Assembly: GCA_950097015.1 (NCBI GenBank)
Contig: CATNEN010000039.1
Span: 10,478,001-10,542,000, forward strand
Direction: 5' to 3'
Length of the DNA: 64,000 nt
DNA from: Macrostomum hystrix
Taxonomy: Eukaryota; Animalia; Platyhelminthes
Below the pieces are notes generated by a model, which saw only the letters and a program-made list of their open reading frames with translations, searched no databases and was not told the DNA's origin. Made by a program: the position numbers and the translations under genes. This document shows positions 36,672 through 62,459 of this stretch, piece after piece (within the stretch, counting starts at the first letter, position 1; every line of letters starts with the position of its first letter).

Positions 36672-37204
36672 AGTAGTAGGGGTTAGCAGAACACGGCCGC
36701 AGGAAATTCCGTGGAAATTCCATGGCATGCATTGTAGTTTGGAATTGGTGAGCAGTCAAGGTAAAAGGTATGTATTTATATGTCTGTATATACTATCTAG
36801 CTCATATAATATATAAAATGTGTATATCCGGAAAACATTGATATTTTGTGAGTATAGTTCTGAATCTTGAGTCTGATGAGATAGAGCTGTAGTATGACTG
36901 TATGCAACTCTGCCGCACTTGTACTGAGGAGATAAGCGACAATGCAAATTGATAGTAGGGGTTGGGTCTATGCTGCTGGGATGGCTGAGCCAATCAGGCC
37001 CTGGTAAGAGAGTTGTGCCCCACCTGCAGTGGAGCGCAGGCCGAGCCAGGTAAGAGATTTTATGATTTTATGGTGATATGGTTGTGGCTGTGGCAAGCGG
37101 GAAGGCAGATAATGGTGGAATGTAACCAATCGCGCTGCGGAGAGTGCGCCTGCATGCACACAGTGACTATGAGTTGCTGGGGGTGTGGGGGCGAAGCCCC
37201 CACA
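36672..37204 (+). repeat. left terminal inverted repeat (533 bp)
   Basis: Starts AGTAGTAGGGG; reverse complement of 61964-62459 with about six substitutions and two small indels by eye. Confidence 0.95.
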
Positions 37205-37674
37205 TTGTTTTCCTTGTTGAAAACAACCCTTTGTTCACTGCAGAGATAAGAGAGAAATGGCTGGCTTATCTTTTGTTGCTGCGTACGGCTGCAGTGGAGT
37301 GGAGAGGCCGATGGAGGGTGGGTGAGGTGTGAGGTGGGAGTTGGAGATAAGGGCCCCAGTCCGCATGGGTAATGAAAACTGATCTATGTCGGAGGAATAG
37401 AAATGAATTGGGAGGCTAGGGAATTCATTGATTAAGTTTTAAAAACTTCCGCGCTGCTCTTGTGCCGTTTTGTAGTATGAAAAATTGTTTCACGAACAGT
37501 TTTGAGGCGGTCTGTGAGTGCTTAAGTGGCAAGCAAATGGTTACAAAGGTGTGATGGTAAAAATAAAGCGGTTTGTAATATATGTCATCTATAATTATGC
37601 TGGTGGATTAAATAGGATCTTATCGGTTTATATTTATTTGAAGCTAGCAGCTAGCTTCTGATACCTTGAACTGG

Positions 37675-37682
37675 TATATAAA
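37675..37682 (+). promoter_or_regulatory. TATA box upstream of left-end ORF
   Basis: TATATAAA ~80 bp before ATG 37761. Confidence 0.5.
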
Positions 37683-37760
37683 CTGGGCAATTTTCTTTGC
37701 TCTGAGGCTATCTCTGTCTTTAATAAATACGCTCGTAAATAAAAAACGAGAAGCGAAAAA

Positions 37761-38582
37761 ATGTCTTCAGTTTGGCATTACGAAACTTGTTTGGATTGTA
37801 TGAAATGTCAGCAAGAAGGACTCCGATCCGATCGCCATGAAAAATGTGAAAAAGTGAAATGGGCAGTATGCTGGTAGTGCTCGGAGGTCTCTGTGTTCAA
37901 CGAACAAGCTGCTGCAGAAAATACCAAGGCTCATCGAAATCATCAGCTGCTCCCCGGTAATGAAGAAGCTGAGCGCTCGTTTCGGCGAATTGTCATGGGA
38001 GCAGCAAAGCGCAGCAAGAAGGAGAAAGATGCAGCAATACAAAGAATGAGGGCGCTCAGTCAAGTCATCAATGGAGTCATCAGATCCCGAGCCAGCAGCA
38101 CCAGCTCTAGTGAGGACTTTGTGACTCCAATTAGTGGTCGTCGTCACGACAAAGTCATCACCAATGCTGCTGCTGATGATGATAATGGTGAGGGGCGAGA
38201 GACTCAAGCTGCTGTGCAATCAATAGCGCCAGCTGTACTTCATGCTCCAGTCATCAGGGGCAAGCAGATGCTTCAACCCCCCAGCCCGATGATTGATGAA
38301 GAAGATGGTAGTGAATCCATGGATATTGAACCTGATGTCTTCGCTCTGATTGGTGATGTGACATCGTCTGCTTCGACTGGTGATCAAGCTGTTGCCAGTG
38401 GAGCTGTGTCTGCTATTACTGGTACTATTAGTTCTGCTGCTGCCTTGGCTGCTCCAAACGCTAGCAATGATCATGGCGACCTGTTGGCGGCGGCTATTGG
38501 GATCCCAGCTTTGACTGCCATCGATGCTGATGAGCTGCTGGCGGGCTTTGAAGGACAACAACAACAGCAACAGCCCGACTAG
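37761..38582 (+). pseudogene. left-end hypothetical protein, Cys-rich N-terminus + acidic low-complexity C-terminus; one in-frame TAG (37875-37877)
   Basis: MSSVWHYETCLDCMKCQQEGLRSDRHEKCEKVKWAVCW*CSEVSVFNEQ is in frame with ORF 37893-38582. Confidence 0.6.
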
Positions 38583-38711
38583 TGAAGCTGCTACTGCTAA
38601 CAATTTGACAGTGAATATTGTGCTTCCATATGTAACTGGTGCTGGCTATAATGTTCTGATTGAAGGTAACAAAGTTACGCTCACTCCTATTTAACTCTAT
38701 TCCTGCATTTA

Positions 38712-38762
38712 CACACACACACACCACACACACACACACACACACTCACTCACACACACACA
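38712..38762. repeat. (CA)n microsatellite
   Basis: Direct observation. Confidence 0.9.
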
Positions 38763-39216
38763 AACATTTTCAAACTCCTATAGGAAGACCACGATGTCTT
38801 TAAATGCTTCTAATGCTATTCATAGAACGGTGAGCTTACATTTTCTTATTAAAAAAAACAAAAAAGCTTCACTTTAATTTAGTCTTTCACGCTACTTTTA
38901 CAGGGAAAAAGCCCGAGTTGGAGCACAGTAAATTCCTGGAATTTAAGAGACAAAAATAAAACAAGCCAAAGTCATTTCACTTGTGATTATTGATTGATTT
39001 TTATACCTCGTTTTGAGAAAAATGTTTTGAGTAAGTTTTTTCTGCAGAAATGGGCAAAATGTGGAAAGTGGTGTTCTTTTTTGCTGAATAATTTGCCTGC
39101 GAAAGAATTTTGTTTTCGACGAGTCGCATTTAATTCAATTGGTATTTAAGGAAGTGAAAAACTTCAGAGCTGGGAATCAAAATAGAAAGAAAGCACTGCA
39201 GAGGTGATTTAAGAAA

Positions 39217-40968
39217 ATGAATTTCCTGCAGCTTGTTTTTCGGTTGCTTCTTTTGCTTCCGTTGTTACACGACGATGTGGCTTCTGGCACCCGGATCTGC
39301 AGATCCTTACATATAACCAGCAAGGGCTATGAGACCCACAGAAATGTTAGTCGCTTGCAGGCGGAGTTGACGGCTTTAGTAGCTGGCTGCCAGTATGTAT
39401 TCGGCAACTTGGAGTTGGGCAATATAGGTATGAACCAATCAACGTACCAACCGCTGGACGATGAAATTCGAAACATGCAAACAGACTTTCTTGACTCCAT
39501 TGTTGAGATCAGAGGAGCACTGACGATCAATTACGTCAGCCTTAAGCGCGTCACCTTCCGCAACTTGCGCACAATCCGAGGTTACGCTTTTAATGAATCT
39601 ACTACTGACTTCCCATTATATTCATTTGTATTATTCTTTTCGCGGAACATGAGGAAGCTGGAATTGCCCAAGCTGACTGCAATCACAAAGAAAAATGTAT
39701 ATCTATTGGGGTCAATTCAGTCTAGCTTGTACTGCTACCTGTCCTACAGCATCAACTGGAGAAGCCTGTTTCAAGAACCAGGCCAGCGTTTTTCTGATAA
39801 CATATTTTCTGTTATTACTGAAGAAGGCCAAGTTCTTCTGAGACGCTGGAGCTCACATGCGATAAGGCATACCTGCAATCGTCTGCTTTCCTGTCACGCC
39901 AATTGTACTCAAACTCCAATTTATAACAAAACTTGCTGGTCCGACGGTGTTGATGGCTGCCAAAGTAATCATCTGTGTCGTAAGCGCAAGTGTAAATCTA
40001 CGAACCTATGCTTCCGTAACCCTAGCACTGGCCAAGAAGACTGCTGCCACGACGACTGCCTTGGCGGTTGCTCAAACCGGCCCAACGAGTGCTTCGCCTG
40101 TCGCAGAGGAGTATTGTTCAATGGTGTCTGTAGAGAATCCTGTCCGTCGAATACTAGTACCGCTAGTGGCAATGGCACTGGCGTGACTGTTTGGCGACAG
40201 ATCGGCAACATCTGCGTAGAGGAGTGCTCACTGCCCTTTGTTGTTAGCTCTGACGGCAGGCGCTGCTTAATCGAGTGTCCGTCAGCAGAAGTCCCTATCA
40301 AAGGAGTTTGCTCAAAGTGTATTGACAAAATTAGCTCTAAGCCCTGCAAATCGTGCAATGTCTCCAATATAATTACTGACGATTTAGTATACTCATTGAG
40401 GACTGAGCAGTGTTCGATTTGGAGGGCCGATTTTTCTGATCTAGTCGTGCATGCTGATTGGTTAAGTAGCTTAGATAACCTGAAAGTATTGGAGAATTTA
40501 GAGTACTTTTACGGCAATTTAATAATTCAGAGATCTCAACACTTGACAGAAAATATTCGATTCCTACGTAATATCAAACATGTCACTTCTTCCTTTGAGA
40601 TTGAATTTCTCAAGACGAGATACCTCGGACTAGCTAGCTTGGAATATACTCCTAACCTTGAGCTTAAGGATATTAGTGATCTTTGCAGAGCCTGGTATCC
40701 TAGCAATCGAATCCGAGAAATCCAGGAAGTCACTAAAGAATTTCAAATTACAATAGAAAACCTGAGCTTCGATGACAGCAGCGAGATTTGCCGGAACGCT
40801 ACCTGCGATGCTCAGTGCCAGGACGAATGCTGGGGACCCGGTCCAGACATGTGCGTGGCGTGTCGGAACTTCAAAGTGAACGGCCGCTGCTATGCCACCT
40901 GTGCGGAGTCGGGCAGGATTGAAGTAAATGGGAATTGTGAACTGCCTGTGCCACAGCTAATCGGCTAA
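39217..40968 (+). CDS. intronless secreted EGFR/ErbB-like ectodomain (L1, furin-like Cys-rich, L2, partial domain IV), no TM or kinase
   Basis: Signal peptide; GCQYVFGNLEL, FLDSIVEIRG, FRNLRTIRG; CHANC..CW...CQ, DCCHDDCLGGC..CFACR; LGLASLE; CDAQCQDECWGPGPDMCVACRN. Confidence 0.9.
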   Translation: MNFLQLVFRLLLLLPLLHDDVASGTRICRSLHITSKGYETHRNVSRLQAELTALVAGCQYVFGNLELGNIGMNQSTYQPLDDEIRNMQTDFLDSIVEIRGALTINYVSLKRVTFRNLRTIRGYAFNESTTDFPLYSFVLFFSRNMRKLELPKLTAITKKNVYLLGSIQSSLYCYLSYSINWRSLFQEPGQRFSDNIFSVITEEGQVLLRRWSSHAIRHTCNRLLSCHANCTQTPIYNKTCWSDGVDGCQSNHLCRKRKCKSTNLCFRNPSTGQEDCCHDDCLGGCSNRPNECFACRRGVLFNGVCRESCPSNTSTASGNGTGVTVWRQIGNICVEECSLPFVVSSDGRRCLIECPSAEVPIKGVCSKCIDKISSKPCKSCNVSNIITDDLVYSLRTEQCSIWRADFSDLVVHADWLSSLDNLKVLENLEYFYGNLIIQRSQHLTENIRFLRNIKHVTSSFEIEFLKTRYLGLASLEYTPNLELKDISDLCRAWYPSNRIREIQEVTKEFQITIENLSFDDSSEICRNATCDAQCQDECWGPGPDMCVACRNFKVNGRCYATCAESGRIEVNGNCELPVPQLIG

Positions 40969-43900
40969 TGCGATGAAGGCTGCAACGGTCCAGGGCGTGA
41001 TCAATGTGTGAACTGAGAAGTTTCGTTACGAACAAATCAGTGCTTCATTGTAATGAGACTAAATTTGAGCTACTAATAGTAAACCAATATCCCTATGAAA
41101 ATTCTAAGATGAAATTTTGGAACAAGCTTTTGTCTTTAATTAGTCGATTAGCACATGCAGTGGCACACCATCAAGGCAAGCCGTTGTGGCCATATTTGGT
41201 CACCTGAGTTTGACGTCGCCATTTGTTGAAGCCAGTCAGGAAAAGACCTTCAGCACTTGAGTGTTTTTAGTTTTCGATACCTAAATAAAAATAGACTCGT
41301 ACTTCAAAATCAAATACTACTACTTTCAGTAGTATTTGTCGTGCATGCACGAGATGCACGCATGCACGTCCTTCATAAGCTTGTGCAGTGCTGTAGCTGA
41401 GTTAACCATTTGCCTATCAAGTATTTAATCAACAGGGTGCTCAGTGACTCGCACTTTTACTCAGCAGCAGAGCTGCACAATGTCTACTCGATGTACTCAA
41501 ATTAAAGTAGGCGTTGAGTTGAAAAGTCAGGGTTTTGTGAAGAGTCTTACACGGGTATAACTCCCTTGCTGCTCTTATTATATCCAGTTTAGTGTTGCTA
41601 TCAGCATGCGTTTACTGGTGTTATTTTACGGAGCGTCACTTCTAGGCACTACAGACTCAAGCATGCTACTTTCTTTAGATTGTTCGCTCAAGCTAGTTTA
41701 CAATATTAGATCTCGCTTCTCTGCGACTACTGGTCTGAGTACAGAGACAATTCAACTCAGGAACAAAATCTCAACTCGCGATAGCTCGAGCAAAGCTGTG
41801 AGCCATTTCTCTCGACTTAACTAAGGTATTTAACGGTTGAAAGGAGAGAAATGTGTCAAGCCAAACACGCGCGCACATACAATAGCTAAGGGCTACTGCG
41901 TGCATCCAATGATTGGATAGAGGTGCTGCACATATAAAATCCGATTTCGTCGTTAATGGACGTTAAATGGGCGCATTCTGAGCCACGAATCTATCGTCTA
42001 TGGTTGGAAAATGCGAAGTCTTGAACCGGTGTGCCATATAATGGTCCTGAAAACGGGGCCCATTAAACCGTATAATGGGCGCCAAATAATGGGCCGCAAA
42101 TCATTTATTGACGAAAAAACGTTTCAAACATGTTTAAACAAGTAGAATAAGCGACAACTAAGTAGTTAATAGTCAGTGGCAGTAACGGTCAATACCCAGC
42201 GTGAGGTAAACATCGTTAGTCGAATTTGATCTCGATCCTGCCACCCTCGATGACAAGAGACTTGACCCCGTGGCCAGCAGTGGACTTACCGGAGTTTCGG
42301 CCAGACTCCGCTACAGCAGGTTGCCCGCTTGATGGACCACTGACGTTCGTCGGACGACTGGAGTCCTGCAAAGCGTCAGAGGTAATCCTCGTAACTTTGG
42401 CCGATGGGCCTATTCTCATTCGAAATATTATGATCTCAAAATAAAAATTAATAATAATGATTGCTTCTCGATATTCGAGACACTTTTCTTAAGCTCTGAA
42501 AGTAAAACAACGCTAGCAGCTACGCCTGCTCAATCAGTCCTCTTTTAGAATTTAATCGTAGATCGTATAACGCTTGAAGAAATGCTCGAAAAGAAGTTAA
42601 AAATTAAAACGAATGACGCATTTAGCTCGTAGCTATGCTCAACATTTTTTTTCTAGTTCTGATTCGGATAACGCTTGCAGTTATGCTGGATAATTTTTGT
42701 TAGCTTGGAATACAAAAAAATGCTAACAGCACAGTCTTCACTTCTTTTTTAATCCTATTGAATATTGCTTGCAAGAATGCTTAACAAACGCTGAAAGTTA
42801 AAAGGAACAATCGCATTGCTCAAAGTATTTTCTAATATTTCTGAATCAATGAACCATGGCAGATATGCTCGAAAATGCTTTCCTCAGTTTTGTAGCGAAT
42901 AAAACTTGCTGCACTCAAAATTTTTGGGGGGGGGGCGCCCACCCCGAGCCCGCTCCTTATCTGCCTGTCTGGCTTGGAGATCGGGGCCACCTTCCGCCAC
43001 TCCCCCCTTCCGCCGCTACCCACCTTCCCTCGCTCTCACCACTTCCGCCGCTCCACTCCTTAGCGTAGGGATCGAGTTTGCCTACGCTAGTTTGCCGGCA
43101 TTTCTTTGTGTCCTGAACCCATTGTGCCACGCCACCTAGCCTTCTAGTCTCAGTAGTGCACCGCCATACGATGACGCCACGCCCTAGCCACCGGCAAATC
43201 AGTCTCTATCATACTTTCTTCATAATTGTTGCCCGCCGCAGTACAAGAAGTGATTCAACCCTACGTGAAGACCCTGTTCCATTGTTGCCATTGTTGCTAT
43301 ATGTCGCTAATACTGAGCGAGCCTGCATGTACACCTATATCCTCTACGTCGCCAATACTCGTCATCATCTACTACAACGTCATTGCCCGAGTGCTACTGC
43401 TAGACAAATCTTCGCCGTGTTTGTCGTTATTTATTCCACCTGGGTCCTCACCGAGAGCGTCACATTATTTCTTCGATAATTCGCTTTTACCATTTCGATA
43501 AATAATGTTACCCCCTCCATTATTTTTGCCAGCCACTTGATAAATTATTCTACCTTATTGATTATTTATACTCCACCTTGATAACTTTTGCTTTCCTCAT
43601 GATAAATTTTGTTTACCTCTCGATAATTCATTTTCTCCCTCGATAATTCATGCTTCTCTCTTAATCTATCTACTGATTAGCTACTATCATATCCTTTCTA
43701 TGGATAATTACTGCTTCCTTCTTGATAGTAAATGTTTCCTCCTGGATAAATTATGCTTCCACATCGATTATGAATGCTATCTTCTGGAAATCTCATGCTT
43801 TCCCCGAGAAATATCATGCTTATCTTGCTAAACAACTCGTAAAAACGATACAATTGAAAAAGCTAAACGCTAATATTGCTGTGGTTTAAATGTTGTCTTA

Positions 43901-45239
43901 TATTTCTAAATCTAATTACGCTTGCAGCAACGTGCGAAAAATCTGTCCTTAGTTTTATACTGAATAGCGCCTTTTTACGGAAAGACTATATTTTTTTCAC
44001 TATATTAATACTCGTACCCAAAAGAGCTGAATAAAAATGTAAATAGAAAACAGTTACTGATAATTATGCATAACAATAATTAGCTACCCCTAGATAGATC
44101 ATACTACCCCTCAATAATTCCTGCTAGTGTTGTAGTGCTGCTTTTTAATAGCACTTCCCTAGTAATTTAACTTCCTCTATTAGTAATACATAATGCAAGT
44201 GGTTGGCTTAACTTCCTTATTTATTGTTTTCAGTCACTTAAAGTGACCTGTACAATCATTATACCGCACCCCTGTTGGGTTGATTGATTCAAACTACTGA
44301 TAGTTTGGGTAGCGTGGCTTTCAACACGATAGGTCTGGCCTTCTGCCAGTAATGTTCTAGATACTAAATCTAGGTAATTCTGGAGACACTGCTCTCAGGT
44401 GTTTCAGACAATTTAATCAGATATTTCGGGCTCTCTGGCCAGTCTGTACTCGGGCTTCTCCCGGATCGGTCTTTAACGGTTTCCACTCACTTAGAAATAA
44501 GTAAGGCTTTTGAGCATGCTCACAAAGAGACTGAACTGTTTAAGCTCCAATTTAATGGCAGACCAAACGGTTAGCTTCCTGTATGAAAACCCCTCTGTAT
44601 TTATACCAAAAATCCTATCGAATATTCCCAGTATATTTCAGTGGAGTAAAACAAAGTTTATGTATAGATATTTGTAGCATATAAAAATATTTCGCGCGCT
44701 AGTTTAATTTGGCCAATGAGAGCCCTTTACACTATCCCTAAATAAATTATTCTATCCTTTTGAAAAAAGTGCTATACCCTGAAAGTATTATGTTATCCTA
44801 GAAATCTCATGCAATGTACATTAAGTTAGCACATTAAGTTAGCCATATATTAACGCACGTAGGGTGCTACAAGTAGTGACGCAATCCTATTCAATTGAGA
44901 GCATCCGCCCTGTTCTGTGCTACTAACGCACGCACGGGCGAGAAAAAGCACAGATGCAATCTTCTAATAAAGCTGACAGTGTCCGGCCCTATTCTACCGA
45001 AAAAACAGGGTCTATTGTATTCTGGATCTATTCTAACAGAAAATGACGGCTTTTTCGAGCATTAAATGCCTTTAAAATTAGCAAATAATTCGCAAAACGT
45101 GTAACATCTCGTTAAAAGGCAAATATTTTAGAGAAAGAATCGCGAAAATCGGACATCGTTTTTGCTAGAACAACGACAAGACCACATTTTACATTGAGTG
45201 AATGGACACACACACTTTTAGCATAATAGAAGATAGAGA

Positions 45240-45900
45240 GTACAACATCCCTCCCAATAGCTCGTATTGGTTAAAGACGGAGGAATAGAAAATGATTAAA
45301 ATAAGCATTTTGTTTCTACGCATGCGAAGCTCACAAAAGGTAACGTAGTTTGGCACGGGACACAAACTTAAATGCTGTAGGTAAGTCAGATTGTCACAGT
45401 CAAGTCCTTGTTAGCGGTTCGCTTTACTTTGACACCGGATGCTGCCATCGACGGGCGTTCCGAACATCAGATCGGCGGCGGAGATTCCCGTGACGGTGTC
45501 TGGCGTGTTGCTGTACACGGCGAGCCACTCTCGCAGCGCAGCTCGCCAATCAGTTTCTTGGGCTTCAGAAATGCAGAGCAGCTTGCTGAGGGACCGATTT
45601 AGTTGCTCTGTAATGCCATTTAATTTGCAGTGGTATCGTCTGATGCGTAGATGGCTAATCCTGAGACTTTTGACAAAGCTGTTCAACACCTTTGATGCAA
45701 ACAGTGGGCTGTTGTCGGATACAACCTGTCCTGCGGTTCCGAACGTCCCGAAGATCTGCTGCAGTTTTTTGATAGTGGCTTCTGCTGTCATCGATTTCCT
45801 GGCACAACGAATGGGTAGCGTTAGAAATGTTCGACAACTACCATGAAGTGCCGGCCGTTAATTGGCACGAGGAAGTCAAACACGACGGTCTCTGGCGCTG
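45240..45900 (-). mobile_element. Gypsy-like integrase remnant with PPT/LTR start
   Basis: TAEATIKKLQQIFGTFG...VVSDNSPLFAS...NGITEQLN; GGGAGGGA-TGTTGTA at ~45255-45241. Confidence 0.75.
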
Positions 45901-46169
45901 AGTCTCTGGCCTTGACAGAAAAGCATGAGAAATGATACGCAGGAAAGGATGGAAGGAGAGCGTCGCGATGTTACAGATTTCGCGACACTCAGGAAATCCT
46001 ACTCAGAAGTGCGGATATCCCTTTCGAATTTCCTTGTTCTCCATTGCCTACCCTAATAAGTCGTTGCGTTGCTTTAAGGCGAGGGACTCAGCCTTTTCAC
46101 AATATTCAGCATCAGTCCTTTGGTGCAGTGCTAGGGCTAGCGCTGCATGGTCTCTATTAAAACTAATTA

Positions 46170-46439
46170 GTGGCTTTTAAAGGCCGATTGTATGCACAAT
46201 CGCGCTGCTATGTCGAGTGTTTAGAATGTCGTCCGTACTGCATTTCAGACAACAAGACCTTCACAAAGACTGACAGGCCAACCAAGACAGTCACCGCCAC
46301 TGTTGCAACCAACTGGACTGTGTCCGTTGGTTGCAACAACGACCTCTTCTGTCTGGAGGAGTGCGCCAGCAGCCCCAGCTGCCAGGCTGTGATTTTCAAC
46401 GAACGGCAGCTGCTGTGCCACCTGCTCAGGTTTTTTTGA
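46170..46439 (+). pseudogene. PAN/apple-domain fragment
   Basis: FCLEECASSPSCQAVIFNERQLLCHL Cys pattern; no clear start or signal peptide. Confidence 0.5.
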
Positions 46440-47879: not shown

Positions 47880-48720
47880 CTAAATTAGCTTTGGTTGCAC
47901 AGAATAAGGTGCATCTCCACAAGTCACTACTTCGCAAATCTCCAGCTAAGCCCCGAAATTAGCGTGACTTGGAGGGAGGAACGAACCAGCGACCATTGGA
48001 AAGTGAGGCAGCGACATTCGCCGCTGACCCACTCACCCCCTCCTGCTGCACCCCACTCAGGCCGGTCGATGCGCAGCAGCAGATTGCCCGGCTTACTCAG
48101 CTCATCAGTGACGGCCACCAATAGCCACCCGTCAGAGGAACGGTGGCCGTCTTGTTTGAGTTCCGTAGACTGTATAGAATCAGGGCCTGTTGCACATCCT
48201 GCACGCCGCCTGGATCCGGCCGCGGGCGTTCGCTGGCAAACAAGCCTCTTGGCTGACCGACGAGCTGCTGTCAAGGCGCATGGCGCGCTGAGCAGCTGCC
48301 GGATCTTTCGCGAGGTCCTGCCGCAGTCGCGTTTTTGCCCCACTGCTCTTTGAGCTGAACATCAACGACCTACCCGGCTGCTGTCAGAGTACGTGTATTC
48401 TAAATGAACGTTGCTTGACGCAGACGATCTCGCTGTCGCGGTGCAAGGCTTGACTGCGGAGGAGGCCGAGGCGAAAGCGCAGCGGGCAATTGACGCGGTC
48501 ACCGCCTGAGAGAAGACTGGTTTATCTTTGGCTAAACGATATAACTTTCGCCTTGGACCGCCAGCAGCGCTTCCTCGGCATCATCCTGGATCACTGAAAT
48601 CGGGGTTTCCAGGCCTCTATAGGCGTCAATATTGCACCTGCCTGCGGTTTTTTTATACGAGATTGAGGAGAAGGCCGCTTACCTGTTTAATAACTAGCCT
48701 AGCTTACTAGCCCTGTCTCT
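47880..48720 (+). mobile_element. heavily deleted non-LTR retrotransposon remnant (APE SDH motif + RT)
   Basis: TSDHW; LADRRAAVK; FAPLLFELNINDL; ADDLAV in shifting frames. Confidence 0.65.
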
Positions 48721-48902
48721 TCACCTCCACGAAGAAGTGGGCTAACGTTACAGCCTGAGCAGATCTCGGATATCTCCTGCTTTTTCCTGTGGCGAACAGA
48801 GCGGTTGGGCGCTGGTCAGACATCCGTTCTGAGCAGAGAAAGCTTGGGCGAAGCGCTCAGCCGCGCAGCGGGCTGCCTCCCCTCCTAGCCGGCTGCATGG
48901 CC

Positions 48903-48904
<2 letters not shown>

Positions 48905-53200: not shown

Positions 53201-53984
53201 TTAAAGTAACGAAGTAAAAGCGAAGATGCTTGCGTCAAAGCCAAATCTGAAGGAGGTAATCGTGATCAATGAAGATTTGACCATCTTTGAGTTGAGTAAA
53301 ACAACAGTGAAGCTGGATAGACCCATCTACATTAGTCAATGTGTTCTTGACCTATCTAAGCTTTACATGTACTCACTTACTGTACACCAAATTAAAACCA
53401 TGGTTTGAAAAAGAAAATGTGCGTCTGGAGCTCTGTGGCGGTGATACTGATTCATTTTTCCTATGTGTTAGGAACATCGATCTTCTGCGAGACTTCTTGC
53501 CTGCTCTGATTCAACGAGGCATTCTAGATACCTCCAACTATGTTGAAAACCACCCGTTGAAGTCTAACAATTTTAAAGCAAAGCCTGGTTGCATTAAGGA
53601 CGAATCCTGCGGGATTGAATTCGTGAGTGGATTCTTCTCCGACCAAAGCTCTACAGGTTCCAAAGCACTGTTACTAACGCGAGTAAAAAGGCTGCGAAAG
53701 GAGTTCAGAAAGCAGTGCTCAAGAAAGAAATTAGCCATGCGGATTACGTCGCTGCATTTGACTCACTCAAAACTCATGATGTTGTCACTCATCGTATCGG
53801 TAGTCATCATCACGAGATTTATACTATTCAGCAGCGCCAGCGAGCTTTGACAACGTGGGAAGATAAGCGAGCTTGGATTAGTTCCAACGAAAGTCTTCCG
53901 TTCGGCCACTATCGTCTTCGGCATGATGTTGCTGCTGATGCTGCTGCTGCTGCTGCTGCTGCTGATCCTGTCGCGAAAACGTGA
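50269..53984 (+). pseudogene. polB: protein-primed family B DNA polymerase with EndoVII/HNH-like insertion; at least 6 stops/frameshifts
   Basis: GSGW, AVINP, CERCL..F...H..C, VVYADFES (ExoI), HDH.SGEFRGAAC..CN, HNLKNYD, KGVFPYEF, DVNNLYG (A), KLKINSVFGKTMEN (B), GDTDS (C), KDE, EDKR. Confidence 0.95.
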
Positions 53985-54868: not shown

Positions 54869-55443
54869 TTATTCTGCATTCGAGATCAAATTTTGTAGGT
54901 GCACAAAGTCAGATTGTAGTTGAAATAAAGAACGAGCTCCACTTAGAACAAAGGAGCCATTGTGAAACAATAGACATTTGCAAAAGTTAAGTTTGAAAAC
55001 TAGTGCGGAAAATGATTCAGATTGATAAAATGCCTTTGGGATTCTCAAAGACAAGTCTGACAAATACAGAGCAGAACAAACAGATAGCTGTCCATGCGCA
55101 GTAATTGTTTTAATTCGAACACAAACGGGTTGATAAGGCAGCAGCTGAGCAGGCACTCTGCGATGCAGCATAGCCACGAAGCGATGGGCAGCCCTGACTG
55201 AGTCCGAGTAGCTCCGGGCGCCACAGATGCTCAGTTGGCCAGTGGGGTAGAGTAGCAGTGTCACTCTCGGATTCCGGATCCCCTCTTGATGAGCACTCGG
55301 TGCCAGACGGGTCGGTAGATGACATGAGCCATGCTGAGAGTGAGTTCCCGAAGTGGAAGCTGGGCGTCCCTGCCACCGGCCAGTCTCAGATCCACTCCTG
55401 CGACCAGATTGGTAACTCTCGGGGCTGTTGCTTGAGTAGTCAT
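54869..55443 (-). pseudogene. TATA-binding protein (TBP) homologue, ~190 aa, one frameshift in a G-run near 55280
   Basis: PRVTNLVAGVDL...LRELTLSMAHVIYRP...VLIKR / IRNPRVTLLLYPTGQLSICGARS...AAHRFVAML...YQSESFSALVFKL...CLLFHNGSFVLSGARS follows both TBP core repeats. Confidence 0.85.
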
Positions 55444-55544
55444 TTCTAATGCGTCGGCTGTTTGTGAAGTTGCCCGTGCTTCTAGTGCAGGAGGAGCAGT
55501 TTGAAATTGTCATGTGCCACGGGCACTGCTCGCTTCTTAAGCTG

Positions 55545-55972
55545 ATACAAAATGTTGGCTTCAGCCAGCTGTAATACAAAAGCGCGTTTCTCACGGCGCA
55601 GCCGGTATCTGATGTTTTGCTAGATGGCGATCCCAGATCCTCCAGGTTGTACACCTGCCTGCCCAACAGCTGGGTCAGAAATACACACTTATTCTCCCTA
55701 CATGTCCAGGTGGGCTTGCATGCAATTCTTCGGATGTCAGCAGCCAACTCCGTGTAAGGTCGGGTTCCATCGGTCCACTTTAGCCTATGCCGCTTCTGTG
55801 TGAGCTGTCTGTATCGAATTCGCATTCCAGGGGAAACCCTCTCCCAGGAACATGGGGACGCATACACATGGTGGGTGATGAGTTAGCTTCCTGACCTATC
55901 TTATACAACTGCCATCTCCTTCACAATGAAATCACTGTTACATGGAAAGCCTTGGATGTCGATGTAGTACAT
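55545..55972 (-). pseudogene. hypothetical DEDD/DnaQ-exonuclease-like protein, two in-frame stops
   Basis: MYYIDIQGF...FIVKEMAVV...HRLKWTDG..PY...K..FL...VYNLEDLG.P...CAVRNA pattern; fold call is inference. Confidence 0.5.
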
Positions 55973-55981
55973 TTTCAGTCG

Positions 55982-56699
55982 TTAATCGAATTCTTGGCCA
56001 TTAGAATCAGCCCGCTGCTTTCTTATATACTTTTTTTGCTCACCTAGCTTCAGCCAGGCTGTCTTGCACCCAAATCCCTTAACTGCATGTTGTTCTTTTC
56101 CAACTTCAACCTCTTCACTGGTAGCTGGCAGAGACATTTGCTGTCTGAGGGATTTTCCTATAGCTGAAACTGGGACATTAGAACTCTTTTGTCCCAGCAA
56201 GCAAACGAAATCATCCCACCCGGCTGGTTTATTTCGCATTTCAGAATCCCTCACCGCATGCTGAATCAAGTCGACGATGTTCGATGAGGAAATTAACTTG
56301 CCGGAAATTTCCGTCTCCCCACTGTCACCCACCCGAATCAGAGACGGATTGGCTGATAGGATGGCCCATAGACTGCGAGCGCTGGTTTTGAATTTCTGGG
56401 GCACGGACTGGGCAATCTTTTCTGCCCAGCTGCTCGGCAGCATCTCTGCTTTCTGTTTCTGTGCCGCTTCACTCTCTCCTGCTACACTCTCCTTTCCAAC
56501 TTGCTTGCGCTTGGACAACAAACTTTTCATAGCGTTCTGGTACATTGTCTGGCCAATCGTCGGCATACAATATATCATCACATTTTATTTGTGCCTGCTT
56601 TACCGCAATGTCTCCTGCAGACTCATTGAGCTTCACATTACTCATTAGCATGTCATACTCAGACTTGGGAATCAGAACCATCTCGGGGAACTTGTTCAT
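55982..56699 (-). pseudogene. conserved Maverick hypothetical protein (frameshifted)
   Basis: MVLIP N-terminus; GE..I.G..I..SNIVDLI...P.GW..F...L...NVP...IG motif typical of animal Mavericks. Confidence 0.65.
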
Positions 56700-57006
56700 T
56701 TTCCTTCTTTCTTCTATGCACAAGCTTCAGCAGAGTGGGGAGAATTTTAAGGAAATTATGATTTAGCAAGTCAGCTTCTTTTCTTTGAGCTGGGATTTTT
56801 CGAATAATCTGCTTGGACTTTGCCAGCTCAGCCTTTTCAATAAGAGAGAAAGTCAGGTTGTTTTCCAATAGGTTGTAACAGGCTTCAACAAGGAATTTTC
56901 GCACTTCTTTCGGACCGTGCTTGATTAGCAAGCGCTTGAAGCTGACAGTGTATTTCGCTGATGCAAGAATTGCAAAGATGCTTTCATGAAAACAAAGCGT
57001 GTCCAT
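56659..57006 (-). CDS. conserved small Maverick hypothetical protein
   Basis: E.CYNLL.NN..S..EK..L.K.K..IRKI pattern; sits directly after the ATPase. Confidence 0.55.
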   Translation of the reverse strand: MDTLCFHESIFAILASAKYTVSFKRLLIKHGPKEVRKFLVEACYNLLENNLTFSLIEKAELAKSKQIIRKIPAQRKEADLLNHNFLKILPTLLKLVHRRKKENEQVPRDGSDSQV

Positions 57007-57045
57007 TGTGGAGTATAGATATGGAAAACAGCGTATTTGCCATTC

Positions 57046-58047
57046 TTAGGTATAAACTAGGTGGGGGCGCTGGTTGGGCAGGATCCGGGCTCGCACTCGC
57101 AGCTCATCGGGAGTGGATGGGTGGAAATCCAGAAGCAGGTAAGCTCCCCTACCTTTAGCGGTCACATGCTAAAACACAGACAGCAGAAAGCCGGGCTTCT
57201 CTACAAAGCACTGCCTGCCCAGTGCTGCAATCTGCAGCTGGTCTCTGGGGTTTTTCATGATGACAAAGTACATCGCATTCAGACTAATCGTTCGCAACTC
57301 TTTTCCTTTAAAAAATACACTCTGGGTCAGCATTACCAGAAAGCAGGGTAAGTGATGAGCGATTCCGGTGAAAACATTTCGCATCGCAGCAGAGTTAGAA
57401 GTCTCTTCAATCAAATCATCAAAAACAATCAGGTCATTGGGTCTTAGAGCCGCCTCAATGTTGCTGGGGAATCCCTGCTGCATGTGCACTCCCAGGCTGC
57501 TCAGCTCAGAGTGCACTGTCTGCGAAACCCCATAGTACCACAGGACTCTCTCAGGCTTCGTATCAAACATTTTCGCACTTCGCTTCTACAGATTGGCTAA
57601 AGCCGACTATGGAAACCAGTGCGAATAGAACCTGCTATGATGCCCGCCTGCGGCAGGGAAGCTGCATGAATTGCATGCAAGCCCACCTGGACATGTAGGG
57701 AGAATAAGTGTGTACTTCTGTCCCAGCTGTTGGGCAGGCAGGTGTACAACCTGGAGGATCTGGGATCGCCATCTAGGGAAGTTGGAAAAGAACAACATGC
57801 AGTTAAGGGATTTGGGTGCAAGACAGCCTGGCTGAAGCTAGGTGAGCAAAAAAAGTATATAAGAAAGCAGCGGGCTGATTCTAATGGCCAAGAATTCGAT
57901 TAACGACTGAAAATGTACTACATCCCTGTACTGAATTAGCTGCTTCACGAAGGTTGTCTTGCCAGCATTGGTTGGCCCGCTGACAATCATGCAGCTTCCC
58001 TGCCGCAGGCGGGCATCATAGCAGGTTCTATTCGCACTGGTTTCCAT
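57046..58047 (-). pseudogene. A32/FtsK-like genome-packaging ATPase, interrupted by ~350-bp insertion (57571-57924) and a stop
   Basis: Walker A GPTNAGKT; Walker B LIVFDDL; HH...LTQ; RTISLN..Y; KNPRD..QI..L.RQ; YLLLDFHP. Confidence 0.92.
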
Positions 58048-58079
58048 AGTCGGCTTTAGCCAATCTGTAGAGCTGACTT

Positions 58080-58595
58080 TCATAACTTTCTTTTTCTTAG
58101 GCTGGCTTCGAACTGCCGAAGCATTCTGTCATTCAGGTGGCTCTTTTCCTTTGAATGCAGTTGTCGCAGAACCCACTTAAATGACCGTTCGAATTGAAAC
58201 TTCTGATAAGTAAAATAAAGACAGAAGAGGCCGCATTTGACGGAGTCACAGCTTTGAATTCGATCCACATTGCTGCTCAAACGAAGCGGGGAACCTAAGG
58301 CTACTTTCAGTAAACCATGAATAATCATTCAAGTTTTCGAGTCCCAGCCAAGGGAATTGAAAAGCTCCACAGAATTCCCGCAAGTGACGTCGCAAACCAC
58401 CCAGTGGCCTGACAAGGAGCTGTGATGCAACAAAATGAAAATTAATTTGCTCTTATATGTTTTCTCATTCAGGTAACTCCACAATTGTAATTCTAATTCA
58501 GCATTATTGGAACTATTCAAATTTAGAGACACTATAAAAACGTTTCTAGGGGGCAAAAAGCTTCTGGCAAGTTTAAACACCTGAAAAGTGTTCAT
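58080..58595 (-). pseudogene. adenain-like cysteine maturation protease, one in-frame stop (58329-58331)
   Basis: GHWV...ELFNSLG...IQ...SVKCGLFCLYF. Confidence 0.88.
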
Positions 58596-58597: not shown

Positions 58598-59882
58598 TTA
58601 TGATGAAAAATCTAGCAAAATTTCCCTATGCTTGGTGACTTCAATCAGAGAGTCATACAGGCACATGGCAATCAGAGTCACGGCCTCGTCAAGCGCCTGT
58701 CGGAACCGAATCTCCAGCCGCAGTTTTCCCTCTTTCTGTCCGTACCACAGGGCTGCTCCCTCGGGTGTGAGGTCGAACGCTAACACGGTGTTGTCGTTGG
58801 AGAAGACCTGATAGGGGATCCAAGGGACCGAGTTGGTGGGGCTGGCAGACTGGAAACTTTTCAGGTAGTGCAAGTACTCTCGCACAAATGAGTTGTTTTC
58901 GGGTGTGAATGCACCGTGGCACATGGTTTCCCCGCCTTTCTTTAAAGCTAGCTGGCTGAGGTTGAAGCTCTGGAACTCGAAGGGGCTGGTGTGATGATTC
59001 CCGTTGAAGGCTCAGTGGCTCACGAAAGCCAGCATGATGAACTTAGGGAGTTTTCAGTGGGTAAAGCCTTCAATGTTCCTCGACTGGATTCCCTGGGGCA
59101 GAATAAAGTTCTGCATTTCGGCTCGCTCCATAGGATAGAGCGCATTCTGGTTGGTCAGTCCCTGCTCATGGGCTAGGCTGATGTGAGAAGCCACCTTGAC
59201 TCGGCGGAGATGCAGGATGCAGTGGGAGATTTCCATGCGGTAGGCTGTGTTGTTTGTGACCGGGGTTCTGATGGCAAATGCAGCGTCGCTGCGCACCAAC
59301 TTAATGTGCAGGTGCAGGTTGTTCAGCAGGAACATGGGGCACTGGAAGATGTCGCTGAGCAACGGTCCGGCATACTCCACCCAGCGGGACTGCCTGTGGC
59401 TCTCCATGTGCGCCTCTGCAGCGGAGTCAGATTGCAGGAATCCAGCGGGGTAGAACTTCAGCTGCTGGGCGTCTGAGGAGCTCATGAGAGCTTTGAAATA
59501 GGCATGATAGGGATAGAGTTGGTCTCCCCCGGACACAACTCGCTGGTTAATGCTCACAATGACATCAGAGAAGAGCGTAGACAGGACGAAGTTTTCAGGG
59601 TGCACATCACTGTCTCGGCGCTCTGTCAGCTCTCCTTCAGCGTTCAGAACATTCTCCCTCAGCAAGCACCCATCCAGTCGGACTAGGCGGCAGCGAATGT
59701 ACAGTAAAGAATTCAATAGATCGGTGTATTCGTCAGCTGATGGGTGGCAATCGAATTCGATGGGTGCATTTGCAGCAATTGAGTTTCACGGGGTGAATAT
59801 CGACATAGGAGGATTTGTCAATGGCAGTCTGCAGCGCAGGAGCCTTGAACAAATCGAGCCTTGGGTTGAATCCATAAGCCAT
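58598..59882 (-). pseudogene. double-jelly-roll major capsid protein (hexon-like), frameshifted
   Basis: LDLF.AP.LQTAI...V.IHP...PIEF...Y.DL.NS.LY; LFSDV.V.IN; YPYHAY; C-terminal LAFDLTP...G.LRLEIRF..AL...VT.I....D..IEV...R. Confidence 0.92.
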
Positions 59883-59884
59883 GT

Positions 59885-60075
59885 CTACGACAAAGAGTCC
59901 AGCACGCGCTTCACCGTTTTCCTGCCGACTTTTCGCTTCCTCTTGCTTACCGTTTTGCCCTTTGCTTTGCTCTCTCCTTTCTTAGGTTTCTTTCTACCTG
60001 CATTGTTCCGTTTCCTTGATTTTTCCCCTTCTTGCCATTTTGGCGAGGTGTCTTCTGTATTCTCTTTTTCCTAGA
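59885..60075 (-). pseudogene. basic C-terminal remnant of putative core/DNA-condensing protein
   Basis: QEGEKSRKRNNAGRKKPKKGESKAKGKTVSKRKRKVGRKTVKRVLDSLS* between penton and hexon; N-terminus apparently lost. Confidence 0.45.
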
Positions 60076-60116
60076 AGCTTTAGCATATTAGTACTGCCGG
60101 ATCAGCTGCTGATAGT

Positions 60117-60904
60117 TCATCGAATAAGTTTCTCCCGGATCTGGATCGTGAGCAAAACAGGACTGCAGCTCTGAGCAGTCAGATGGTGACCAAATGTATC
60201 CCGCAGTTGAATTCGAATGCTGTGTAGAAAATTTGCTTTCTGGATTGGGAAGAACAAAGTTTTCTTAAACAGTTTGCTAAAGTAGCAGCCCCATTCAGCA
60301 TTAGAACCGATGTTCACAGTTCGCAGCAGGGAGTCCCAGTTGCAGCTTGTTCACTCAACAAGGCTGCAGTGCACATTGACCAGGTTGGTGGGCGGACAGC
60401 CGATGCAACAGCTTGACACGTGGCGCCCAGGTGGGATTTTGATTGACTGGTTTCCAAATCCCAACCACTGCAGGATTTTGCTTGGAGGAAGATACAACTC
60501 TGCTCGTGCGGTATTGTTGTGCATCACTGTTCGTTGATTCTGAATTTCAAACTTTATCCCAAAATCTTTATTGCTGCGAGCCATCAGGCCCGATTCATCA
60601 GCCTCCATCTCAGACTCTCTATCGCTCATGGCATCAAAGAACAGTGACTCAGAGTTGACTAGCAGCTCATTCAACCGCTCCACCAGCGTCCGGGTTGAAG
60701 AACCAGGGCCTCATGCTCTCTTCCATCTAAGACTGTGAAGCAGCAGGGCTCGTCAACTTTGAGCCATGCAGCAGGCAGATGGATTTCAGCCAGACCTGCC
60801 TCATAGTCCACATTTCGATCCAAGTATATAGGTGCAGTCAGGCGAAAATTAAAGTCACTAGAAGAACCTTCTGCATGCTCACTGTTTATTATGATGCTGC
60901 TCAT
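60117..60904 (-). pseudogene. minor capsid protein (penton-like), frameshifted
   Basis: S.DF..RL..PI.L...YEAGLAEI.LP..W; VHCSLVE; LLRTV; FFPI...SIRIQLRD..G...V..TI.IR. Confidence 0.85.
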
Positions 60905-60946
60905 TCCTCAAAATCAAAATATTCAAATATCGAATAACTTAGATGT

Positions 60947-61170
60947 CTATACCTTTCTTAAGTCCTTCTCATCCACCCAGCCAGTCGAGTTGTAGTCGGC
61001 CCACTTTACGAGATAGCGAATCTTTCCCTTCCGCTTCTCAGTCTTTAGAATCTTTTCAATCACATACACCCGCAGGGAGTCCGGAACAGCTTAGAGTTCA
61101 TGCTCATAAAAGAGTCATTGAATGTCTTCCCCCCTCATGTCGCGAATCTTGTACATGTAGGGATAATGCT
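60947..61170 (-). pseudogene. Maverick integrase C-terminus with chromodomain; catalytic core absent
   Basis: YKIRDMRGEDIQ*LFYEHEL*...YVIEKILK...RYLVKWADY..GWV.EKDL. Confidence 0.85.
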
Positions 61171-61928
61171 TTGGGGGATAATCCTCCTTCTCTTCATCAT
61201 AGGTCAGCTTTGGCAATTCGTTTGCGTCGTACCTGCGCAGTGGCCAAGGGACCTTTCGTTTGCAACTGCCGCTGCTGTTGCTGCTGAGCGACGAGGCGGC
61301 GCGAAATTGGTACCAGACTGGATCGCGGCTCAAGTCGCTGTCCTGCAGTGGTAAGCGCCCAGATGGAGAGGAAGAACCCACACTGCTTGCCTTGCCCGAC
61401 TGGGCGATGAGTAGCGTCTTCCGGTCCTCCTCCTCCTCCTCACACGTTCCTTCAACAGAAGCCAGCTCAGCCTTGACATCGATGCCCACCTCACGTTTGA
61501 CGTCTTGAGTGCCCAGCTCATATTCACCTTCTGGTGATTTTCCTTGCAGCTCCGAGTCAATCCAGCTCGCTTTTTTCCATAGCTCATTCCATAGGCGGGG
61601 TGACAGGGCCACGGAATTGCGCCTTAGGTATTCTTCCGTACTTGAAGATACTCCGTATCTTCGAGAAGACGCTTGAGCCAGATGGTTCCTCGGCTGACCA
61701 TCGCGATCTTCTCAAAACCAAGCTTGATCGTGACGTTGTGTCGGTTGACCGCGGAGTGTACAAGTTGTTGCTTCACTTGCTTTAGTTTTCCCATTGATAC
61801 GCGTTGAGATTGAATCCGGGCACGCCTGGCTTCAGTTCTCGTTCACTAGAATAGAAGCGCCGAATCGCTATAAAATGATGACCTTCATAATCTTGCACTT
61901 GCACTTTAAACCCGTCGCAGAGATCCAT
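61170..61928 (-). pseudogene. PC4/Sub1-like ssDNA-binding protein (domain 61782-61928) with frameshifted acidic extension
   Basis: MDLCDGFKVQVQDYEGHHFIAIRRFY....LKPGVPGFNLNAYQWE matches the PC4 pattern V.V..F.G...I.IR..Y....KPG..GI.L...QW. Confidence 0.8.
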
Positions 61929-61963
61929 GCTCAACAATCTGATATAGCAGCGATGAGAATTTG

Positions 61964-62459
61964 TGTGGGGGCCCCCACACCCCCAGCAACTCGTCACTGT
62001 GTGCATGCAGGCGCACTCTCCGCAGCGCGATTGGTTATATTCCACCATTATCTGCCTTCCCGCTTGCCACAGCCACAACCATATCACCATAGAATCATAA
62101 AATCTCTTACCTGGCTCGGCCTGCGCGCCACTGCAGGTGGGGCACAACTCTCTTACCAGGGCCTGATTGGCTCAGCCATCCCAGCAGCATAGACCCAACC
62201 CCTACTATCAATTTGCATTGTCGCTTATCTCCTCAGTACAAGAGCGGCAGAGTTGCATACAGTCATACTACAGCTCTATCTCATCAGACTCAAGATTCAG
62301 AACTATACTCACAAAATATCAATGTTTTCCGGATATACACATTTTATATATTATATGAGCTAGATAGTATATACAGACATATAGATACATACCTTTTACC
62401 TTGACTGCTCACCAATTCCAAACTACAATGCATGCCATGGAATTTCCACGGGATTTCCT
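61964..62459 (-). repeat. right terminal inverted repeat, outermost ~29 bp missing
   Basis: Reverse complement of 36701-37204. Confidence 0.95.

What the first reader, a model, noticed from the sequence alone, without database searches (positions are those of the whole stretch)
36672..62459. Near-complete, fairly young but dead adintovirus-like Maverick, unusually long
Seen: the TIRs differ by only about six substitutions and two small indels over ~500 bp, yet almost every core gene has stops or frameshifts. At ~25.8 kb it exceeds the usual 15-20 kb because of an ~11 kb central block. Inference: a recent insertion with intact relatives probably elsewhere in the genome. Some frameshifts in homopolymers may be assembly errors.
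Basis: partly seen in the sequence, partly recalled or inferred. Interest (0 to 1): 0.7.

Follow-up and report, generated by a model that had tools for sequence, protein, structure and literature searches.

The report
Dead Maverick holding secreted EGFR ectodomain
A broken virus-like transposon (Maverick), likely in a flatworm, holds among inserted host repeats an intact gene for the outer part of an EGF receptor that is predicted to be secreted and would likely act as a decoy, and it more likely landed there than travelled with the transposon.

Summary
The Maverick is real and dead. The terminal inverted repeats (TIRs) differ by 6 substitutions and 2 indels, but the right one lacks its outer 29 bp, so no target-site duplication (TSD) can be read. 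PolB, ATPase, protease and capsid genes are all broken. Of the element's integrase only the chromodomain tail remains; the rve piece in the middle is not Maverick-type. 'Young yet dead' is no paradox: 17 lesions seen, about 13 expected from TIR divergence. A public run reproduces 5 of 6 PolB breaks, so these are not assembly errors. The extra ~11.5 kb is a patchwork of host repeats. All 38 of its cysteines match a Macrostomum lignano receptor kinase (46% identity). Variants occur in all four runs laid, two of them without this Maverick's PolB or TIRs, so it is likely a multicopy host family of secreted decoy receptors. Whether the Maverick carried it (about 30%) or it arrived later (about 55%) needs the genome, which is not held.

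The parts
34642..36634 (.). Left flank: copy of a dispersed host repeat
   Evidence: 91% identical to 24187-26097 over 1.9 kb; its end part matches 62459-62664
36672..37204 (+). Left TIR, complete, starting AGTAGT
   Evidence: (AGT)2 is the commonest Maverick end motif in PMC8097293
37761..38582 (+). Left-arm accessory ORF: Cys-rich start, low-complexity rest, one internal stop at 37875; function not identified
   Evidence: sequence; no Pfam hit; Atlas request did not complete
39217..40968 (+). Intact intronless EGFR-ectodomain gene, 583 aa: signal-like N-terminus, L1, CR1, L2, first part of CR2; no transmembrane or kinase part. Homology runs about 15 codons past the stop, then ends
   Evidence: Pfam Recep_L, Furin-like, GF_recep_IV; PDB sequence and fold hits; 46% to M. 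lignano PAA79361; hydropathy; AF2 pLDDT 78.7
41340..45070 (.). Non-coding host-like repeats, deep in run X1 (bins about 500-2900)
   Evidence: no Pfam hit in six frames
45414..45900 (-). Decayed rve integrase fragment, not Maverick-type; looks Ty3/Gypsy-like (motif recalled)
   Evidence: Pfam rve below cut-off; only E=0.011 against a profile of 7 Maverick integrases; best blastp to 636 locus ORFs E=0.066
46167..46436 (+). PAN-domain-like host gene fragment
   Evidence: Pfam PAN_1 E=0.002-0.004, below cut-off
47408..48960 (.). Very high-copy repeat plus decayed LINE reverse-transcriptase-like piece and (CA)n
   Evidence: X1 depth 14,000-24,000 in two bins; RT motifs read by eye, recalled; no Pfam hit
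49380..49614 (.). SINE-like very high-copy repeat (SINE label inferred)
   Evidence: X1 bin depth 179,000 and many loose ends; ARAGORN 0 genes; no credible Rfam hit
50241..53984 (+). Protein-primed PolB with endonuclease VII insert; broken by 2 stops (51676, 53202) and 4 frame changes (near 50785, 51845, 53385, 53620)
   Evidence: Pfam PF03175, PF02945; tblastn with 4 natural homologs; nearest relatives 58% and 56%
54869..55975 (-). Small conserved Polinton ORF (2 stops) followed by a TBP-like domain
   Evidence: hit to L064 ORF, E=9e-6; Pfam TBP E=5.5e-13
55982..57045 (-). Two Polinton-type ORFs of unknown function
   Evidence: 55982-56584 matches an L009 ORF, 37%, E=3e-12; the other has no hit
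57045..58082 (-). A32/FtsK-type packaging ATPase, interrupted by a 349-bp insert (57571-57919) built from inverted copies of nearby sequence, plus a stop at 57171
   Evidence: tblastn hits from 8 of 76 loci; inverted repeats I2-I4; contigs of X1 and X3 join across the insert
58080..58595 (-). Adenain-type (C5) maturation protease, one internal stop
   Evidence: Pfam Peptidase_C5 E=0.002, below cut-off; frames
58598..59880 (-). Major capsid protein, double jelly-roll; frame change near the start and 2 stops (59056, 59014)
   Evidence: 29% over 416 columns to the L009 ORF, E=5e-52; Atlas DJR clusters at score 0.97
59880..60118 (-). Basic pX-like ORF remnant (label inferred from position and composition)
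   Evidence: frames
60117..60903 (-). Probable minor capsid protein (inferred from position, no tool hit); one frame change and one stop
   Evidence: frames
60947..61171 (-). C-terminal tail with chromodomain of the Maverick integrase, 2 stops; catalytic core missing
   Evidence: Pfam Chromo above cut-off; matches only the last 60-100 residues of rve+chromo integrases from related loci
61500..61930 (-). PC4-like gene, broken; a second PC4-like repeat read by eye
   Evidence: Pfam PC4 E=2.4e-6
61964..62459 (-). Right TIR, lacking the outer 29 bp
62459..62664 (.). Right flank: another, 80-90% identical copy of the left-flank host repeat, entered mid-unit

Best explanation
This is one integrated Maverick/Polinton whose core genes are all broken and whose left accessory region holds about 11.5 kb of host-type repeats and an intact EGFR-ectodomain gene; the block likely entered after the element inserted, and the gene is likely one member of a multicopy flatworm family of secreted receptor ectodomains predicted to soak up EGF-type ligands or block full-length receptors. 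Steps. (1) Shown: TIRs, gene set, breaks. (2) Inferred: a Group 2/Alpha-type element of about 15 kb inserted next to a host repeat and has decayed neutrally since; a later deletion removed the right end, the TSD and flank up to a second repeat copy; another loss removed the integrase core (before or after insertion, unknown). (3) Shown: the block is a mosaic of repeats of very different abundance plus decayed retroelement pieces. Inferred: it came in as one or a few pieces of host DNA. (4) Shown: the EGFR gene is open, keeps every cysteine, lacks membrane and kinase parts, and has many variants in public runs. Inferred: it arose by truncation of an intron-poor Macrostomum receptor kinase, was amplified, and is or was until lately kept by host selection as a decoy. 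My odds: single dead Maverick 0.88; multicopy secreted family 0.75; arrival after insertion 0.55.
For: Neutral decay: TIR substitution divergence 1.2% (95% CI 0.5-2.7%) predicts about 13 lesions in 7.9 kb of core coding DNA; I counted 17. Lesions real: X3 contigs identical over PolB 50864-53920. Mosaic block: X1 bin depths from about 210 to 179,000. EGFR gene apart from this element: depth over the gene versus PolB is 1450-1780 vs 130-210 in X1, 107-209 vs about 3 in X3, 92-557 vs 0 in X4, 35-166 vs 0 in X9; at one site 12, 5, 6 and 2 contigs cover it and all differ from the window. In X4 and X9 deep cover stops near the gene's ends. In X1 and X3 several contigs continue through the non-EGFR sequence 3' of the stop, so the truncation is likely shared by the family. 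A 2,568-nt X3 contig matches the left-arm ORF (37798-38467, 24 differences) and no further piece of it is listed over the EGFR gene. 0 of 76 PolB-related loci encode an EGFR-like ORF. The ORF is open while the core decays: P about 0.02-0.03 if it had sat there neutrally since insertion. 38 of 38 cysteines shared with PAA79361; sister to it inside an all-M. lignano clade of 4 rows, SH-aLRT 100, quick tree. Fold matches EGFR/HER ectodomains, TM about 0.6.
Against: The tool warns that summed contig depth is no copy number and that the runs were found with the EGFR stretch, so they cover it by choice; only 4 of 13 runs were laid and their tables are cut. No contig or read spans either block junction. 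Low-copy parts of the block have X1 depth (about 210-420) like the left arm and PolB, which fits cargo as well as an allelic copy of this locus. Piling six or more inserts into one block within 1.2% divergence is easier if the block came in one piece, possibly before the last transposition. The gene lies on the same strand as PolB and the left-arm ORF, in the accessory position. The 76 loci are distant (28-45% identity to the query PolB) and mostly short. The open-frame test is post hoc: there is a stop inside the region of homology, about 15 codons before it ends. Secretion, expression and ligand binding are untested. The host genus is inferred from protein hits only.
Confidence: 0.55

Rival explanations
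1. True cargo: a Maverick lineage captured the EGFR-ectodomain gene (about 2.5 kb, giving a 17-18 kb element) or the whole block before this insertion and moves it around; further repeats piled in later.
For: [quoted passage not shown]
Against: The gene is far deeper than any Maverick part in 4 of 4 runs and present where PolB and TIRs are not (X4, X9); the sister left-arm contig in X3 does not visibly continue into it; the parent receptor appears intron-free from CR2 to kinase in M. lignano, so lack of introns says nothing; Maverick genes themselves span 0.30-0.65 GC at fourfold sites, so composition does not discriminate; 0 of 76 related loci carry it.
Confidence: 0.3
2. Chimera: two neighbouring insertions of one family in opposite decay, or a misjoin, with ordinary host DNA between a left-arm remnant and a PolB-to-right-TIR remnant.
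For: No TSD; right end truncated and flanked by a repeat copy that is not the continuation of the left flank; the block looks like intergenic host DNA; no spanning reads.
Against: Arms are inverted, 98.8% identical and enclose one non-redundant gene set; no second TIR copy inside the window; lesion load fits the TIR-based age.
Confidence: 0.1
3. The EGFR ORF is a recent pseudogene fragment of a full-length receptor, open by chance.
For: Homology continues past the stop; a 549-aa truncated model also exists among M. lignano copies of the parent gene; P of an open frame under neutrality is small but not negligible (0.02-0.09).
Against: Only 46% identical to the nearest full-length receptor yet all cysteines kept; many variants share the non-receptor 3' sequence in X1 and X3; no membrane or kinase homology anywhere in the window.
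Confidence: 0.15

Closest known systems
Group 2 Polintons / Alpha adintoviruses (Starrett et al., PMC8502044; Jeong et al., PMC10748475)
   Same: TIRs, PF03175-type PolB with an inserted endonuclease, packaging ATPase, adenain protease, double jelly-roll capsid, chromodomain integrase tail; 36% over the whole fragment to a C. remanei Polinton PolB
   Different: Integrase core missing, no TSD, all core genes broken; TBP-like and PC4-like genes, which I did not find described for Polintons (search, one paper with Polinton and PC4 seen as listing only; 0 hits in passages); 11.5 kb host-type block
Cargo-bearing nematode Mavericks with wasp proteases and krma kinases (Widen et al., 10.1101/2022.07.12.499685)
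   Same: [quoted passage not shown]
   Different: There, cargo recurs in many elements and species; here it is seen in one copy and linkage is unproven; no fusogen recognised; the gene is a receptor ectodomain
Macrostomum lignano EGFR-like receptor kinases (PAA79361 / Mlig012838, PAA65671 / Mlig030557)
   Same: Same ectodomain clade, 46% and 34% identity, all 38 cysteines shared with the first
   Different: Stops in domain IV; no membrane segment or kinase. Barberan et al. (PMC4914847, passages) list 8 EGFRs for M. lignano and the passages seen mention no secreted receptor
Soluble receptor decoys: human soluble EGFR isoforms (PMC13107152, listing only) and Drosophila secreted decoy of InR (recalled)
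   Same: Ligand-binding ectodomain without signalling part
   Different: Here a stand-alone, intronless, likely multicopy gene found inside a mobile element; no viral protein of this fold in BFVD (best TM 0.21)

Membership tests
Maverick/Polinton | Terminal inverted repeats with (AGT)2 or (AG)3 end motif | tested here: met
   motif present at left end only, right end truncated
Maverick/Polinton | 6-bp target-site duplication | tested here: not met
   right outer 29 bp and native flank are gone; loss is secondary by inference
Maverick/Polinton | Protein-primed family B polymerase | tested here: met
   (broken)
Maverick/Polinton | rve integrase with C-terminal chromodomain | tested here: inconclusive
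   only the tail is present; shows descent from an integrase-bearing element, not a working gene
Maverick/Polinton | Packaging ATPase, cysteine protease, double jelly-roll major capsid protein | tested here: met
   (all broken; protease hit below Pfam cut-off)
Maverick/Polinton | Single jelly-roll minor capsid protein | tested here: inconclusive
   candidate at 60117-60903 by position; no Pfam or locus hit
Adintovirus, Alpha class (PMC8502044) | pfam03175-type PolB (Polinton group 2) | tested here: met
   PF03175 59.9 bits, cut-off 25.8; similarity to C. remanei PolB, nematode PolBs being Group 2. No tree with named Alpha/Beta references was built
Adintovirus, Alpha class (PMC8502044) | N-terminal OTU domain of PolB | tested here: inconclusive
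   region aligns at 49% with P0114; no Pfam OTU hit in window or relatives; not folded
Adintovirus (PMC8502044) | Intact integrase and virion module; PLA2X or GasderminX/Cupiennin accessory genes | tested here: not met
   integrase core absent; no such Pfam hits among 22 of 44 long and 131 of 139 short ORFs scanned. It is a degraded endogenous relative, not a working member
Adintovirus (PMC8502044) | Free linear genomes or virions | not testable with these tools
   only contigs were available
EGFR/ErbB receptor tyrosine kinase | L1-CR1-L2-CR2 ectodomain | tested here: met
   CR2 partial
EGFR/ErbB receptor tyrosine kinase | Transmembrane helix and kinase domain | tested here: not met
   top hydropathy outside the N-terminus 0.99 vs 3.06 in the parent; no tblastn hit of parent residues 597-1090 in the window; no Pfam kinase in the block
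Secreted decoy receptor | Secretion and ligand binding without signalling | not testable with these tools
   predicted from anatomy only
Maverick cargo gene (Widen et al.) | Same gene at the same place in independent Maverick insertions | tested here: inconclusive
   no genome held; contigs too short; indirect evidence leans against

The most novel reading that the evidence does not exclude
A flatworm Maverick lineage captured a truncated EGF receptor, turned it into a secreted decoy cargo and spread it through Macrostomum genomes, founding a multicopy gene family that outlived its carriers and now tunes EGFR signalling in a regenerating animal: a virus-like element delivering a growth-factor-receptor decoy, a fold with no match among predicted viral structures.
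Probability: 0.22. Interest if true: 0.78.

Novelty: new variant of a known kind. Interest (0 to 1): 0.45.

Why it matters
The dead Maverick alone is ordinary: most Mavericks in animal genomes are degraded (PMC8097293). The gene inside it is not. A multicopy, kinase-less, secreted EGFR ectodomain family would be a new layer of control on a pathway central to flatworm regeneration (PMC4914847), and is testable by RNAi and binding assays. If the gene also proves to be Maverick cargo, it would extend Maverick gene capture from nematodes to flatworms and to a signalling decoy. My searches (open-access library only) found no paper on Macrostomum Mavericks, on such a family, or on a virus-borne EGFR ectodomain.

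Tried and rejected
No whole genome is held, so copies could not be mapped. Word-seeded protein searches with the EGFR ORF found nothing; the full HMMER scan found 108 relatives. The exact protein is not in the 15-billion collection. Direct scans of viral contigs with capsid and PolB fragments and of metagenome contigs with the EGFR ORF gave no confirmed locus. The contig joint 38577-50086 that would skip the whole block (X1, X3) is rejected as evidence of an empty form: its short side is 20 letters and both ends are CAG/CAA runs. The rve fragment at 45.4 kb was tested as the element's integrase and rejected. No LTRs, long inverted repeats or clear duplication bound the EGFR gene or the block; one exact 15-bp direct repeat (44823/46693) is unexplained. 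No poly(A) tail after the EGFR gene. Codon composition did not separate host from Maverick origin. tRNA and Rfam scans were empty apart from one chance scaRNA hit on the CA repeat. Weak Pfam hits below cut-off on short frames were treated as chance. Absence of cover in X4 and X9 over the core is only weak evidence, as contigs show presence, not absence. The left-arm ORF stayed unnamed because the Atlas did not answer. The careful EGFR tree did not finish; the quick tree is cited, with a long-branch warning for the next row out. No complex prediction was run. Earlier scan findings: none returned.


Full report
Observation. The left end begins AGTAGT at 36672, the commonest Maverick end motif (PMC8097293, passages). 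The right arm lacks the outer 29 bp and runs straight into a host repeat. That repeat also forms the left flank and has a third copy at 24187-26097; the right copy is 80-90% identical and entered mid-unit, so it is not the continuation of the left flank. No TSD can be read. A deletion of the right end and native flank is the simplest reading (inference).

Core genes. PolB (50241-53984, +) hits PF03175 and endonuclease VII. Its nearest relatives are unnamed Logan proteins at 58% and 56%; 192 proteins pass E 1e-20 among 5,575 candidates. Against four homologs it shows 2 stops and 4 frame changes. An alignment of 15 homologs fetched 74 metagenome and 2 viral loci. Their 1,199 ORFs identify, on the minus strand, two small Polinton ORFs, the ATPase, the major capsid protein and an integrase tail. 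The capsid call is backed by double jelly-roll clusters in the Atlas; the protease by a Peptidase_C5 hit below cut-off. The minor capsid and basic pX-like genes are placed by position only. TBP-like and PC4-like domains are present. The ATPase is split by a 349-bp insert made of inverted copies of nearby sequence; contigs in X1 and X3 join across it, so it is particular to this copy.

Integrase. Only 60947-61171 matches Maverick integrases, and only their last 60-100 residues with the chromodomain. A profile of 7 such integrases run over all window frames finds that tail (E 4e-7) and, weakly, the rve piece at 45.4 kb (E 0.011). That piece has Gypsy-like motifs (recalled) and lies among host repeats. 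So the element could not integrate on its own even if the other genes were whole.

Young but dead. TIR rates predict about 1 stop and 7 indels in PolB and about 13 disabling lesions in 7.9 kb of core coding DNA; I counted 17. This is ordinary neutral decay. Three X3 contigs match PolB from 50864 to 53920 without a difference, across 5 of the 6 breaks. X3 may stem from the same material as the assembly, but it still argues against homopolymer errors, as do the sequence contexts. X1 holds a PolB version that differs at many sites and has indels of its own; I did not assess whether any copy is intact.

The central block. From 38.6 to 50.2 kb, depth in X1 swings from about 210 to 179,000: a patchwork of repeats, with decayed Gypsy-like, PAN-like and LINE-like pieces, a SINE-like unit and CA runs. 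Without it the element is about 14-15 kb. Intact vertebrate Mavericks run 12.7-24.6 kb and coral polintovirus regions average 23.6 kb, possibly with flanks (PMC11131425, passages), so the length is not in itself remarkable.

39217-40968 encodes 583 residues without a break: hydrophobic N-terminus, Receptor L, furin-like, second L domain and the start of domain IV. It has no transmembrane segment. Among 1.84 billion representatives, 108 pass E 0.001 and two stand far ahead: Macrostomum lignano receptor kinases of 1,090 and 1,091 residues. Identity to the first is 46% over 587 columns and runs about 15 codons past the stop; its membrane and kinase parts have no match in the window. All 38 cysteines are shared. 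In a quick tree of 54 of the first 75 hits, cut to 640 residues, the protein is sister to that receptor in a 4-row clade whose other rows are all M. lignano. The model (pLDDT 78.7) matches Drosophila EGFR and HER2 ectodomains at TM about 0.6 and nothing in BFVD above TM 0.21. The host is therefore likely a Macrostomum-type flatworm (inference). An antisense gene model is colinear with the parent from CR2 to the kinase within 9 codons, so the parent is likely intron-free there and the lack of introns is no sign of viral residence.

Is it cargo? Thirteen runs hold part of the gene; I laid 4. In all 4 it is covered by several variant contigs and is much deeper than PolB; X4 and X9 show no PolB or TIR cover. 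Depth is a sum over contigs and the runs were chosen by this gene, so this shows multiple variants, not a copy number. In X1 and X3 several contigs share the non-receptor sequence 3' of the stop, so truncation is likely a family trait. A long X3 contig matching the left-arm ORF has no listed piece over the EGFR gene, and 0 of 76 distant related loci carry such an ORF. An open frame this long has P about 0.02-0.03 at the core's lesion rate, which points to later arrival or to host selection. Against this, the gene sits where nematode Mavericks carry cargo (10.1101/2022.07.12.499685, passages), the inserts cluster in one block, and low-copy block parts match the left arm and PolB in X1 depth. 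I put late arrival at 0.55, cargo at 0.3, chimera at 0.1.

Mechanism, predicted. A signal-bearing L1-CR1-L2 unit keeps both ligand-binding faces of an EGF receptor (established knowledge of the family, recalled). Secreted, it would bind EGF or neuregulin-type ligands, or pair with full-length receptors, without signalling. None of this was tested. M. lignano has 8 listed EGFRs and 2 ligands, and flatworm EGFR families expanded independently (PMC4914847, passages).

Comparison with known kinds. The element works like a Group 2 Polinton / Alpha adintovirus (PMC8502044, parts 1-2 of 6 read; PMC10748475, passages; PMC11161782, passages) but is a degraded endogenous relative: integrase core, TSD and the named accessory genes were not found. 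The gene is an EGFR-family ectodomain but not a receptor kinase. Searches of the open-access library found no report of Macrostomum Mavericks, of a secreted EGFR family in this genus or of a virus-borne EGFR ectodomain; subscription papers and supplements were not seen.

Verdict. The element is an ordinary dead Maverick. The value lies in the intact ectodomain gene and the open question of its vehicle. Interest 0.45.

Noticed in passing
window 57571-57919: The insert in the ATPase gene is a patchwork of 98-100% identical inverted copies of 55620-55728, 55961-56107 and 57987-58071: a very recent template-switch type rearrangement, absent from sister contigs.
   Followed up: partly
window 54869-55230 and 61500-61930: TBP-like and PC4-like domains inside the Maverick core: general transcription factor homologs I did not find described for Polintons in one search and two papers' passages.
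   Followed up: partly
window 40717-40896: Residues 501-560 of the EGFR ectodomain are 72% identical to the M. lignano receptor against 30-60% elsewhere, and residues 521-583 have higher GC at fourfold sites (0.67 vs 0.45): possible gene conversion from a full-length paralog.
   Followed up: partly
window 36200-63200 in runs X3, X4, X9: Cover is gene-shaped (PolB, capsid module, EGFR gene, left-flank repeat; none on TIRs and several spacers), which would fit RNA better than DNA; if so the broken PolB copy and the EGFR family are transcribed. Library kind is only guessed by the tool.
   Followed up: no
window 50241-61465 in X1 and X3: The capsid module is 2-5 times deeper than PolB and the TIRs, hinting at sister elements with a similar capsid module and a different polymerase, as reported for nematode Polintons.
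   Followed up: no
window 24187-26097, 34642-36634, 62459-62664: Three copies of an unidentified AT-rich host repeat of at least 1.9 kb; deep in X4.
   Followed up: partly
window 44823-44837 and 46693-46707: Exact 15-bp direct repeat around the Gypsy-like and PAN-like fragments; could be the duplication of a 1.9-kb insertion.
   Followed up: no
window 11674-16511 (-): Leucine-rich-repeat host gene exons (PPP1R37-like by eye, recalled) separated by long minisatellite arrays.
   Followed up: no
window 2125-5136, 26694-33735: Fibrinogen-domain ORF, mariner-type transposase, two LINE RT fragments and a Gypsy-type element with gag, RT and integrase pieces, all named by eye and not tested.
   Followed up: no
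window 1951-34306: Dense minisatellite arrays with 19-45 bp units, up to 2.3 kb long, and a MITE-like inverted repeat at 17704-18153.
   Followed up: no
L056:4729-6021: A Polinton integrase ORF with an N-terminal phospholipase A2-like domain in the same stop-to-stop frame.
   Followed up: no
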